Shown here piece after piece: positions 55,512-61,105 of a DNA stretch of 64,000 bases. A model generated the notes under the pieces. It saw only the letters and a program-made list of their open reading frames with translations. It searched no databases and had not been told where the DNA came from. Where the stretch lies: IMG/VR virus record IMGVR_UViG_3300031867_004305, positions 96,001-160,000 of that record; one strand, given 5' to 3'. Position 1 is the stretch's first letter, and every line of letters starts with the position of its first letter. Both the position numbers and the translations under genes were made by a program. Source of the stretch: a virus. Taxonomy: Duplodnaviria; Caudoviricetes.

Positions 55512-55564
55512 GGCATCAAGTAAAGAGCCTTCTCGTGGCGATGCTGATTTCGACTAATCTTTAC
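55512..55564 (+). ncRNA. Second theta/minimal HDV-like ribozyme
   Basis: P1 GGCATC/GATGCT, P2 GTAAAGA/TCTTTAC, P3 GCC/GGC, L3 TTCTCGT, J4/2 CTAA. Confidence 0.8.
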
Positions 55565-55649: not shown

Positions 55650-56235
55650 ATACCCTATTTAATAAAATGGTTGAACCAAGTGAAGAAGAGCTAACCACTC
55701 TGCTTGGACTATCCGAAAAACAGCCCCAAACTTGATGGGATACTTTCAAGCCAAGGCCGCGAAATCAGTAATGATTAGCGATATGGAGAAACTCCTAATG
55801 TTAAGGGTAGGTGCTTGGTTATCCGCTAACAAAAACTTGGCTCCTCGCGGCGTCGTAATAGAAGGTGGGCGTTAAAAGCGTGACCTGAATCCAAGTTAGG
55901 CGTAGGATGGCTGCCACCGCAAACCTTGGAAATGCCAACAAGACGCTTGGTGTCGTTGAAACCTAGAAATAGGATATAAGCGAGGTTCACAGAAAAAGTA
56001 GCCCAAAACGACAATGATTCTAATAGATATTTGTAAATATTACTTGGAATTATTGTGCTGAACGGTTCGGGTGAAATTTGAGAGTAAGCAATCTCTCCGT
56101 TGCTCACCGAAAGGTAGGGTGAAGAAGTCCGGAATTGCTACCCGTGGCTCAGCCTTCATCTTCAACGTGGTTGAATATGTTAGAAGGATAATACAAGTAC
56201 GACGAAGGTCGCAACGGTTTTATTAAATAGGGTAT
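55650..56235 (+). ncRNA. ROOL-like large RNA (about 586 nt)
   Basis: Terminal stem ATACCCTATTTAATAAAA/TTTTATTAAATAGGGTAT. Size and ordered motifs (AATCCAAGTTAGG, AAGTAGC, GCTGAACGGTTCGGGTGAAA, GCTCAGCC, GTTGAATA) match ROOL as I recall it. tRNA-cluster context. Confidence 0.7.
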
Positions 56236-58099: not shown

Positions 58100-58216
58100 T
58101 AGACTCATCCAGCAATTTCTTTTGCGCTGTAGGAGCCGGTAATATTGGTTCAAATCCAATTCTCCTCACCATATGAGGAGATAGTGTAATAGGTAGCACG
58201 CCGTAAAATGAGTCTA
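58100..58216 (+). ncRNA. CAGCAA stem RNA copy D with circularly permuted tRNA domain (Y-RNA-like)
   Basis: TAGACTCAT/ATGAGTCTA enclosing T-arm 58144-60, TCTCCTC-ACCA-TAT-GAGGAGA, and D-arm 58182-99. Confidence 0.75.
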
Positions 58217-58225
58217 GTATATTAT

Positions 58226-60012: not shown

Positions 60013-60128
60013 TAGGCACATGCAGCAACTTACATAGATAATCTATGAGTCATCGGTTCGATTCCGATTATGCAATCCAAAGCTTTGCGTATCGCCCAGA
60101 TGGTAGGGCAATAGAAACAAGGTGCCTA
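60013..60128 (+). ncRNA. CAGCAA stem RNA copy G with circularly permuted tRNA domain (Y-RNA-like)
   Basis: TAGGCAC/GTGCCTA enclosing T-arm 60052-68, TATGCAA-TCCA..-TTGCGTA, and D-arm 60092-109. Confidence 0.75.
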
Positions 60129-60142
60129 GATGAAAGGTTTTT

Positions 60143-60727: not shown

Positions 60728-60817
60728 GCGGTATTAGCGTAGAGGCCGAACGCGGGAGTTTGCTAAACTCTGTCGATCTTCAGTGATCCGAAGGTTCGAA
60801 TCCTTCATACCGCGCCA
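60728..60817 (+). tRNA. tRNA-Ser(GCU)
   Basis: GGAGT-TTGCTAA-ACTCT; long variable arm; CCA. Confidence 0.85.
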
Positions 60818-60818
60818 A

Positions 60819-60977
60819 ATGTGGACAGTAGGCTTGGAAGCAGCCATCTGATAATGAGTCTTTAATTTCTCCATCTGTGCGAAATGTATTATAGGCTACA
60901 TTTGTTATAATGTCCTATGAGTATGATGTGCGGATGGGCAATAGAAATATGAAGTTTGGCGTAATAGCACACCACAT
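60819..60977 (+). ncRNA. 23S rRNA H43/H44 (L11-binding, GTPase-associated centre) mimic
   Basis: GTAGGCTTGGAAGCAGCCATC...TAATGAG and GCGTAATAGCACAC, closed by ATGTGG/CCACAT. Confidence 0.7.
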
Positions 60978-61105
60978 AGCTCATCTGCCATGTGTAGAAG
61001 GAGCGGAGAAATCGTTCTGCGATTTCGTTAATAGACTTGCCCACGCCTCTGATTCAAGCGTACCTTGGGGAGCACGCGGCCACAGCGGTTAAAGTGGCAC
61101 TATGC

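What the first reader, a model, noticed from the sequence alone, without database searches (positions are those of the whole stretch)
60819..60977. Stand-alone mimic of the 23S rRNA L11-binding GTPase centre
Seen: directly after tRNA-Ser lie GTAGGCTTGGAAGCAGCCATCTGATAATGAG and, about 95 nt later, GCGTAATAGCACAC, closed by ATGTGG/CCACAT. The intervening part forms its own stem (CCATCTGT/GCGGATGG). Known: bacterial 23S nt ~1055-1105 reads approximately GAUGUUGGCUUAGAAGCAGCCAUCAUUUAAAGAAAGCGUAAUAGCUCAC (H43/H44). It binds uL11 and thiostrepton, and uL11 is needed for RelA activation. No other rRNA sequence is nearby. Inference: a phage RNA that titrates uL11/uL10, or decoys factors or toxins aimed at this site, possibly damping the stringent response.
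Basis: partly seen in the sequence, partly recalled or inferred. Interest (0 to 1): 0.85.

Follow-up and report, generated by a model that had tools for sequence, protein, structure and literature searches.

The report
Phage RNA copying ribosome's uL11-binding centre
Inside its tRNA gene cluster, this 181-kb uncultured phage encodes a 159-nt non-coding RNA whose two ends fold into a self-closed copy of the 23S rRNA domain that binds protein uL11 and meets the translation GTPases. It belongs to a large phage RNA family I could not find described, and it probably imitates that site off the ribosome.

Summary
Window 60819-60977 (+) begins 1 nt after tRNA-Ser and lines up base for base with E. coli 23S nt 1050-1109 (top of H42, H43, H44). 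It is interrupted only by a 95-nt hairpin plus a UUUG linker between positions 1090 and 1091.

A covariance model built from 24 relatives, leaving out this element and its close kin, scores it at 100 bits (E 4e-30). That is the only hit in the window. The same model picks E. coli 23S 1050-1109 as its only hit in that 23S locus.

I collected 108 distinct members from viral contigs. Every helix covaries, including the 1082-1086 pair that closes the junction triloop. The nucleotides that staple the tertiary fold are nearly invariant.

Members sit in tRNA arrays on the tRNA strand. No uL11 gene and no recurrent neighbouring protein was found.

This is not an rRNA remnant, an r-protein leader or a Y RNA. 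The family is absent from Rfam 15 and from the searchable literature, although this scan has already met it on many other phage genomes.

Most likely mechanism (inferred, untested): an autonomous fold bound by host uL11 that acts as an off-ribosome decoy. The uL10 site is absent, and any effect on the stringent response is untested.

The parts
60728..60817 (+). tRNA-Ser(GCU) with encoded CCA. It is the upstream neighbour, and its 3' processing would set the 5' end of the mimic.
   Evidence: ARAGORN and Rfam tRNA at 54.5 bits. The element starts 1 nt after it.
60819..60977 (+). The whole GTPase-associated-centre mimic RNA (159 nt).
   Evidence: Leave-out covariance model R2: 100.2 bits, E 4e-30, model positions 1-161, the only hit in 64 kb. 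Single copy in the 181-kb genome. No ORF above 60 aa overlaps it.
60819..60824 (+). 5' strand of the closing stem, equivalent to the top of H42 (nt 1050-1055).
   Evidence: Pairs with 60972-60977. Across the family all six pairs covary and five of them show all four Watson-Crick types.
60826..60850 (+). H43 equivalent (nt 1057-1081), including the 1067 loop. Position 1067 is G here (60836).
   Evidence: The base pairs 1057-1081 and 1058-1080 changed on both sides relative to E. coli.
60851..60855 (+). Junction triloop closed by the 1082-1086 pair (A-U here).
   Evidence: In the family this pair is U-A 39, C-G 35, A-U 7 of 95. The triloop forms when the three-way junction collapses in the folded GAC (PMC6239185).
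60856..60859 (+). nt 1087-1090 (GAGU): G1087 pairs with C1102, A1088 is the tertiary partner of U1060 (recalled), and U1090 pairs with A1101.
   Evidence: G-C 91/95, U1060/A1088 95/95, U1090-A1101 89/95 with two C-G exchanges.
60860..60954 (+). 95-nt inserted hairpin between 1090 and 1091. It has conserved internal loops (5' side around 60877-60889, 3' side around 60921-60933).
   Evidence: MFE fold. In the subfamily alignment A1, 21 of 43 predicted pairs keep pairing through changes on both sides. The four closing pairs of the insert covary family-wide.
60955..60958 (+). UUUG linker, a signature of the family that is absent from rRNA.
   Evidence: UUUG in 79 of 95 colinear members. The model deletes it when aligned to E. 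coli 23S.
60959..60971 (+). H44 tip (nt 1091-1100, loop 1093-1098) followed by A1101, C1102, A1103.
   Evidence: G1091-C1100 and C1092-G1099 are nearly invariant. A1095 is kept in 67/70 and A1098 in 70/70, while 1096 and 1097 vary, in the set found through the 5' block only.
60972..60977 (+). 3' strand of the closing stem (nt 1104-1109).

Best explanation
This is a real, expressed-as-RNA gene: a member of a large family of phage non-coding RNAs that rebuild the GTPase-associated centre (GAC) of 23S rRNA as a small closed molecule. It is most likely transcribed with the tRNA-Gln/Lys/Ser genes just upstream and cut free by the enzymes that trim tRNAs (inferred). It would then fold on its own into the compact Mg-dependent GAC tertiary structure, with the 95-nt hairpin projecting from H44 as a fourth arm (inferred from the pattern of conservation). 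Because free GAC RNA is the natural high-affinity site of ribosomal protein uL11, and the phage encodes no uL11, the RNA most probably binds host uL11. It would then act off the ribosome as an imitation of the stalk base: a decoy that draws uL11, and whatever else recognises this site, away from ribosomes during infection. Lowered RelA activation is one possible consequence. Shown here: the fold-level copy, its conservation, and its genomic setting. Inferred: expression, processing, uL11 binding and the physiological effect.
For: The element is colinear with 23S nt 1050-1109 with no indel apart from the insert. The family has 108 distinct members, and 95.8% of cells are paired against 69.3% in shuffles. 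Sixteen of 21 pairs change on both sides, and 0 of 500 shuffles reach the observed values for cells paired, cells or pairs changed on both sides, or the covariation score. Nucleotides that I recall as holding the tertiary fold are nearly invariant: U1060/A1088 95/95, G1071 77/78, C1072 78/78, A1077 77/78, G1091-C1100 93/95 and C1092-G1099 94/95, and the 1082-1086 pair covaries. L11 binding requires the GAC tertiary fold, and the GAC is a small autonomous folding unit (PMC6239185). A1070 (72/78) and A1095 (67/70) are also kept; in rRNA these are invariant but make no tertiary contacts, and A1095 contacts cofactors, so more than the fold is preserved. The stem is self-closed, so the RNA cannot pair into a 23S rRNA. 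No uL11 gene was found in 49 carrier records, 15 of them at least 90% complete. No neighbouring protein recurs in more than 7 of 135 loci, which points to a host partner. In 89 of 136 members a tRNA lies within 1.5 kb, always on the same strand; 30 abut an upstream tRNA and 33 a downstream one. A relative carries two diverged copies with compensated stems.
Against: No binding, expression or phenotype data exist. To matter as a sponge the RNA would have to reach numbers comparable to the free uL11 pool. uL11 already built into ribosomes would be affected only if it exchanges. Some members carry a second insert at 1077/1078 in H43, close to where uL11 is said to bind, and I could not check this against a 3D structure. 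Related members carry a sarcin-ricin-loop copy in the insert, which points to partners other than uL11. The conserved internal loops of the insert are unexplained.
Confidence: 0.5

Rival explanations
1. Decoy or pseudo-substrate for enzymes that attack the GAC. These could be host defence or competitor toxins (ADP-ribosyltransferases, nucleases, methyltransferases) aimed at H43/H44, which the phage would soak up to keep ribosomes working, much as phage tRNA arrays are thought to replace attacked tRNAs.
For: A bacterial toxin aimed at exactly this site exists: Tre23 ADP-ribosylates H44 at nt 1095-1098 and blocks EF-G GTPase activity (PMC8661411). The family keeps A1095 (67/70) and A1098 (70/70). 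Members lie in tRNA arrays. Relatives also copy the sarcin-ricin loop, another classical toxin target.
Against: By the heading of its results section, Tre23 acts on actively translating ribosomes, so a naked RNA may not be recognised. I know of no anti-phage system that targets the GAC. Positions 1096 and 1097 inside the Tre23 target window vary freely.
Confidence: 0.2
2. Mimic of the factor-docking site. The RNA, with or without uL11, would bind translational GTPases (EF-G, IF2, RF3) or the elbow of A-site tRNA/RelA complexes, and so trap or tune them.
For: Free rRNA oligonucleotides bind these factors: the SRL binds EF-G with Kd 4-7 uM and IF2 with Kd 0.67 uM, and a cited 1997 paper is titled as showing EF-G binding to a thiostrepton-domain mimic (PMC3496166). 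Three long-insert relatives (L040, L046, L081) carry a sarcin-ricin-type hairpin with different compensated flanking stems. The cofactor-contacting A1095 is conserved.
Against: This element has no SRL hairpin, and neither does the window (one mismatch allowed) or the rest of the 181-kb genome (exact pattern). A1067, the base that stacks on the tRNA elbow and faces the factors, is the least conserved loop base (64/78) and is G here. Micromolar affinities are weak beside those of ribosomes.
Confidence: 0.15
3. Structural chassis. The active part would be the variable insert, and the GAC fold (perhaps coated by uL11) would only give a compact, nuclease-resistant frame and defined ends.
For: Inserts range from about 38 to over 360 nt and fall into several unrelated types. 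The insert of this subfamily has strongly conserved internal loops.
Against: Two GAC-like hits have almost no insert (L013 and L084; both score weakly, 33.8 and 27.7 bits), and complete members go down to 100 nt overall, so the core probably carries the common function. A chassis would not need A1070 and A1095, which make no tertiary contacts.
Confidence: 0.1
4. A decaying fragment of captured host 23S rRNA with no function.
For: High local identity to rRNA.
Against: Family-wide compensatory changes, a precise self-closure, family-specific signatures (UUUG linker, A1101) and conservation in over 100 diverse phages. In two cultured carriers the mimic differs from the host's own GAC sequence. 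No other rRNA sequence is present.
Confidence: 0.02

Closest known systems
GTPase-associated centre of bacterial 23S rRNA (top of H42, H43, H44; E. coli nt 1051-1108; the 58-60-nt uL11- and thiostrepton-binding domain)
   Same: Same helices in the same order, with the same junction triloop and the same tertiary-contact nucleotides. A model of the phage family finds E. coli 23S 1050-1109 at 58 bits as its only 23S hit.
   Different: It stands alone and is closed by its own 6-bp stem rather than sitting inside a 2.9-kb rRNA. It carries a 95-nt hairpin plus a UUUG linker between 1090 and 1091. Position 1101 is A, which makes a Watson-Crick pair with U1090. Position 1067 is G. It is encoded by a phage among tRNA genes.
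Ribosomal-protein mRNA leaders that imitate rRNA binding sites (for example the L10 leader, Rfam RF00557)
   Same: An RNA outside the ribosome that copies an rRNA protein-binding site.
   Different: Leaders lie in cis upstream of the r-protein gene they control and share shape rather than sequence. Here there is no r-protein gene, no Rfam leader hit, near-identity to the rRNA, and a trans-acting gene in a tRNA array.
Decoy and mimic non-coding RNAs (6S RNA; tRNA-like YrlA Y RNAs with Ro60)
   Same: Small stable RNAs that imitate another nucleic-acid ligand. The same phage carries YrlA-like RNAs (earlier notes).
   Different: A different object is imitated. This element lacks the CAGCAA-type handle of those RNAs. 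TROVE genes occur in only 5 of 49 carrier records, 3 of them above the Pfam cut-off.
Fragmented mitochondrial rRNAs of apicomplexans (small RNAs that include GAC pieces; PMC10948144, seen only as a search hit)
   Same: A GAC-like sequence encoded as a separate small RNA.
   Different: Those pieces are reported to assemble into ribosomes (from the paper's title). The phage RNA closes on itself and leaves no strand free to pair with the rest of a 23S rRNA.

Membership tests
Phage GAC-mimic RNA family (undescribed; defined here by models R1/R2) | 5' block colinear with 23S nt 1050-1090 and 3' block colinear with nt 1091-1109, closed by a complementary stem. | tested here: met
   Model R2, built without this element or its subfamily: 100.2 bits, E 4e-30, full length.
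Phage GAC-mimic RNA family (undescribed; defined here by models R1/R2) | Insert between 1090 and 1091 closed by its own stem, followed by a UUUG linker, with A at 1101. | tested here: met
   Insert at 60860-60954, UUUG at 60955-60958, A1101 at 60969. Family frequencies: UUUG 79/95, U1090-A1101 89/95.
Phage GAC-mimic RNA family (undescribed; defined here by models R1/R2) | Lies in a virus genome, typically in a tRNA array and on the tRNA strand. | tested here: met
   Virus record of 181 kb. Flanked by tRNA-Gln, Lys and Ser upstream and tRNA-Gly and Gln downstream, all on the + strand. Family statistics.
23S rRNA gene or gene fragment (Rfam RF02541) | Flanking 23S sequence, or a match to the LSU model. 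| tested here: not met
   No LSU match in the window or the whole genome, while the control genomes ring. The flanks are tRNA genes.
uL11-binding RNA (functional class) | Keeps the nucleotides and pairs needed for the GAC tertiary fold that uL11 requires. | tested here: met
   All fold-defining pairs and bases I recall are present. The requirement is stated in PMC6239185.
uL11-binding RNA (functional class) | Actually binds uL11. | not testable with these tools
   No RNA-protein prediction or assay was available.
uL10-(bL12) stalk-binding RNA | Conserved core of helix 42 (most of H42; minimal fragment about 95 nt). | tested here: not met
   Only 6 bp of H42 are present, and these covary freely in the family. 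The requirement is from PMC1635324.
Ribosomal-protein leader (for example L10 leader RF00557) | Lies upstream of an r-protein gene and matches an Rfam model. | tested here: not met
   No Rfam hit even at E up to 10. No uL11 gene in the genome. The next genes are tRNAs.
Y RNA / YrlA-type Ro60 partner | Ro-binding handle (in this phage, a stem carrying a CAGCAA motif). | tested here: not met
   The motif is present at 58100-58217 and 60013-60129 but absent from this element. PF05731 does not hit this genome.

The most novel reading that the evidence does not exclude
The family may be a phage-made, free-floating replica of the ribosome's factor-docking and toxin-target surface (the GAC alone here; the GAC plus a sarcin-ricin loop in relatives). 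Loaded with host uL11, it would intercept something that normally reads this surface: a GAC-directed immune or competitor toxin, RelA-type alarmone signalling, or a translational GTPase. That would be a new class of viral counter-measure, based on imitating rRNA.
Probability: 0.3. Interest if true: 0.92.

Novelty: categorically new. Interest (0 to 1): 0.8.

Why it matters
RNAs that imitate rRNA sites are known only as cis-acting leaders of ribosomal-protein operons. A stand-alone, near-exact copy of one of the most conserved functional centres of the ribosome, kept by well over a hundred diverse large phages next to their tRNA genes, implies an unrecognised way for viruses to interfere with or protect translation. 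The 58-nt GAC is among the best-studied RNA-protein and RNA-antibiotic model systems, so the hypothesis can be tested directly with existing reagents. Two cultured bacteria carry members (Flintibacter muris DSM 110149 and a Clostridiaceae isolate), so there is cultured material in which to look for the RNA.

Tried and rejected
- **Rfam 15:** nothing for the element at gathering thresholds or at E up to 10.
- **GenBank phages:** blastn against 50,697 records found no match.
- **Insert as a copy of lower H42 / kink-turn 42 (a possible uL10 site):** short-word blastn of all inserts against E. coli 23S gave only scattered chance-level hits. By hand, the conserved internal loops fit neither a kink-turn nor a sarcin-ricin motif. 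Idea dropped.
- **SRL copy in this phage:** none in the window with one mismatch allowed, nor in the whole genome for the exact pattern.
- **Phage-encoded uL11:** none in 49 carrier records.
- **Link to Ro60/TROVE:** 5 of 49 records, not this one by Pfam, and there was no control set, so this is not evidence either way.
- **Conserved neighbouring protein:** none.
- **Recent capture from the host:** the mimic and the host GAC differ in two cultured carriers.
- **Genome-collection scan with the 3' signature:** 79 of 107 matches lack the 5' block, close to the roughly 140 chance matches I estimated for a 17-mer in 596 Gb (my own estimate). Only 28 are real.
- **Downstream 128 nt (60978-61105):** the fold is no better than shuffles (z = 0.03). 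It is not similar to the theta-like ribozyme noted at 55512.
- **3D check of the insert sites:** I could not compare them with the uL11-RNA crystal structures because no coordinates were available.
- **Not used:** Complex prediction and the protein-fold tools, because the object is an RNA.

Full report
**Observation.** The window is part of a 181,042-bp IMG/VR virus record. It carries 19 tRNA genes and a ROOL RNA. tRNA-Ser(GCU) ends with its CCA at 60817. The element runs from 60819 to 60977 on the + strand, and tRNA-Gly starts 128 nt further on. No ORF longer than 60 aa overlaps it. There is no rRNA gene in the window or in the rest of the genome.

**Map on 23S rRNA.** I fetched E. coli rrlH and compared it with the element. 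The element is colinear with nt 1050-1109 and has no indel other than the insert.

| 23S nt (E. coli numbering) | Window coordinates |
|---|---|
| 1050-1055 (H42 5' strand) | 60819-60824 |
| 1056 | 60825 |
| 1057-1081 (H43) | 60826-60850 |
| 1082-1086 (junction triloop) | 60851-60855 |
| 1087-1090 | 60856-60859 |
| insert (95-nt hairpin) | 60860-60954 |
| UUUG linker | 60955-60958 |
| 1091-1100 (H44 tip) | 60959-60968 |
| 1101-1103 | 60969-60971 |
| 1104-1109 (H42 3' strand) | 60972-60977 |

Over the core (1056-1103), 36 of 48 positions are identical to E. coli. Eight of the 12 differences sit in four pairs that changed on both sides and remain paired: 1057/1081, 1058/1080, 1082/1086 and 1090/1101. 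The others are at 1056, 1061, 1067 and 1089. Position 1061 is not conserved among rRNAs, and A there stabilises the fold in Mg (PMC6239185). In three 23S copies of two Clostridia genomes, 1087-1090 reads the same four letters as here.

**A large family.**
A scan with a 17-nt signature of the 3' block stopped at 120.
- None of the hits is a true 23S. In true rRNA the two blocks are 13 nt apart; here they are separated by 38 to more than 360 nt.
- I extracted 108 distinct members, 100-423 nt long with a median of 191.
- All six pairs of the closing stem covary, and five of them show all four Watson-Crick types.
- 1057-1081 alternates A-U and C-G, and 1058-1080 shows all four types.
- The pair that closes the junction triloop, 1082-1086, is U-A 39, C-G 35 and A-U 7 (the last as in this element).
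- U1090-A1101 holds in 89 of 95, with two C-G exchanges.
- On a 32-sequence alignment, the 21 pairs I specified are 95.8% paired against 69.3% in shuffles, and 16 pairs change on both sides. The covariation score is 0.686 against 0.159. Sliding the partners by one to three columns destroys the signal.

**Non-circular membership test.** A covariance model built from 24 members, leaving out this element and its ten closest relatives, scores 60819-60977 at 100.2 bits (E 4e-30). That is the only hit in the 64-kb window. In the E. coli 23S locus the same model finds exactly nt 1050-1109 (58.1 bits), deleting the insert and the UUUG. The phage genome has a single copy. The same model hits over 90 of the first 100 loci from the first scan, so the family is much larger than what I sampled.

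**What is conserved.**
- In the set found through the 3' block only (78 members, so unbiased for H43), U1060, G1063, C1072 and C1075 are invariant, and G1059, G1071, A1073 and A1077 are 77/78. A1067 is only 64/78 (G in 11, as here), and 1061 is U, A or G.
- In the set found through the 5' block only, G1093 and A1098 are 70/70 and A1095 is 67/70, while 1096 and 1097 vary freely.
- From memory of the crystal structures (Conn 1999, Wimberly 1999), these are the bases that staple H43 to H44: the U1060-A1088 pair, and the triples of G1071 and C1072 with the two H44 pairs. I mark that as recalled, not tested.
- PMC6239185 states that L11 binding requires the tertiary fold and that the GAC is a small autonomous folding unit. 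It also states that A1067, A1069 and A1061 neither are conserved nor contribute to the fold, and that A1070 and A1095 are invariant without making tertiary contacts (A1095 contacts cofactors).
- The family keeps A1070 (72/78) and A1095 (67/70). So it preserves more than a bare fold, while the base that faces tRNA elbows and thiostrepton (A1067; PMC5829649) is the most relaxed.

**The insert.** It leaves H44 between the 1090-1101 and 1091-1100 pairs, turning the three-way junction into a four-armed one. In this element it is a long hairpin. Ten relatives share it: one at 87% identity in G030, two diverged copies at 84% in the complete 169-kb genome G014, and others. In that alignment 21 of 43 predicted pairs keep pairing through changes on both sides, and two internal loops are almost invariant. 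I could not assign these loops to a known motif.

Other members carry unrelated inserts.
- Three long ones (L040, L046, L081) contain a hairpin with the sarcin-ricin loop signature, a GNRA tetraloop and different compensated flanking stems.
- Some contain a second H44-like loop.
- About six have an extra hairpin at 1077/1078.
- This phage has no sarcin-ricin-type hairpin.

**Setting.**
- Of 136 members, 89 have a tRNA within 1.5 kb, always on the same strand. Thirty abut an upstream tRNA (11 nt or less) and 33 abut a downstream one (20 nt or less). Release by tRNA-processing enzymes is therefore the natural inference, though it is not shown.
- No + strand promoter-like site lies between the upstream ORF and the element. 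A weak terminator-like hairpin lies at 61003-61020.
- No neighbouring protein family recurs in more than 7 of 135 loci.
- No uL11 gene occurs in 49 carrier records.
- TROVE occurs in 5 of 49 records, 3 of them above the Pfam cut-off.
- Among one genome for each of 185,579 prokaryote species, the 3' signature found only 28 complete members. Most are on MAG contigs, but two are in cultured Clostridia. In those two, the host's own GAC sequence differs from the mimic, so the mimic is an independent lineage and not a recent copy of the host rRNA.

**Mechanism.** The structure-level copy is shown. What it binds is inferred.
- The partner with by far the highest known affinity for free GAC RNA is uL11, and the fold it needs is preserved, so I take uL11 binding as most likely.
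- The uL10 site needs most of H42 (PMC1635324) and is absent.
- With G at 1067, thiostrepton binding is unlikely for this member.
- Two further readings stay open: a decoy for GAC-directed toxins, and a mimic of the factor-docking site. A toxin that ADP-ribosylates H44 at 1095-1098 exists, although it was reported to act on translating ribosomes (PMC8661411). Free SRL oligonucleotides bind EF-G and IF2 at micromolar affinity (PMC3496166), and some relatives add an SRL.
- A dead rRNA remnant, an r-protein leader and a Y RNA are excluded by the tests listed under membership.

**Novelty.** Rfam 15 has no family for this element. Full-text searches for phage RNAs that mimic the GAC, uL11 site or thiostrepton loop found nothing. 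The 224-motif survey that described ROOL does not mention it in its main text. The scan's own notes show the same family noted about 120 times in at least 90 other genomes, including forms with an SRL. I verified the family independently here.

**Limits.** All functional statements are inferences from sequence. The 3' end of the RNA in this phage is undefined. The tertiary contacts are recalled from the literature rather than checked against coordinates.

Noticed in passing
window 60979-61050: A conserved module of about 30 nt starts 1 nt after the mimic. It is a small hairpin within a 4-bp stem, ending in GG, and is followed by a variable hairpin. The 18-nt core occurs in 15 viral loci. In several, the variable hairpin is a terminator followed by a promoter. 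The module also directly follows a mimic in L324, but elsewhere it follows other sequence. Its function is unknown. It is not similar to the theta-like ribozyme noted at 55512.
   Followed up: partly
L040, L046, L081 (inserts of family members): Long-insert relatives carry a hairpin with the sarcin-ricin-loop signature (bulged-G motif plus GNRA tetraloop) with different, compensated flanking stems. In these members one RNA copies both halves of the factor-binding site.
   Followed up: partly
L048, L069, L052, L086, L105, L112, L130, L149: A second, smaller insertion site in the family: an extra hairpin between A1077 and U1078/C1079 of H43.
   Followed up: no
L122:1500-1659 and L023:416-567 (both in the complete 169-kb relative G014): The closest complete relative carries two diverged copies of the mimic about 3 kb apart, each among tRNA genes and with different compensated closing stems. 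This phage has only one copy.
   Followed up: partly
L015, L111, L091, L055, L028 (inserts); L178, L198, L152 (inserts): Some inserts contain a second H44-like hairpin loop. Another 8-11 members share a 19-nt insert motif beginning CACCCCGUAAC. Neither is explained.
   Followed up: no
L330:1501-1680 (Flintibacter muris DSM 110149) and L332 (Clostridiaceae bacterium strain 9): Two cultured Clostridia carry complete family members, presumably on prophages. Their own 23S GAC sequences differ from the mimic.
   Followed up: partly
L121:1208-1296 and L124:1832-1918: The relatives G030 and G014 encode a tRNA with anticodon CUA (ARAGORN calls it tRNA-Pyl), that is an amber suppressor. This hints at TAG recoding in these phages. 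No such tRNA was called in this window.
   Followed up: no
window 55652-56230: A full-length ROOL RNA (Rfam RF03087, 307.6 bits) lies in the same tRNA and ncRNA cluster.
   Followed up: no
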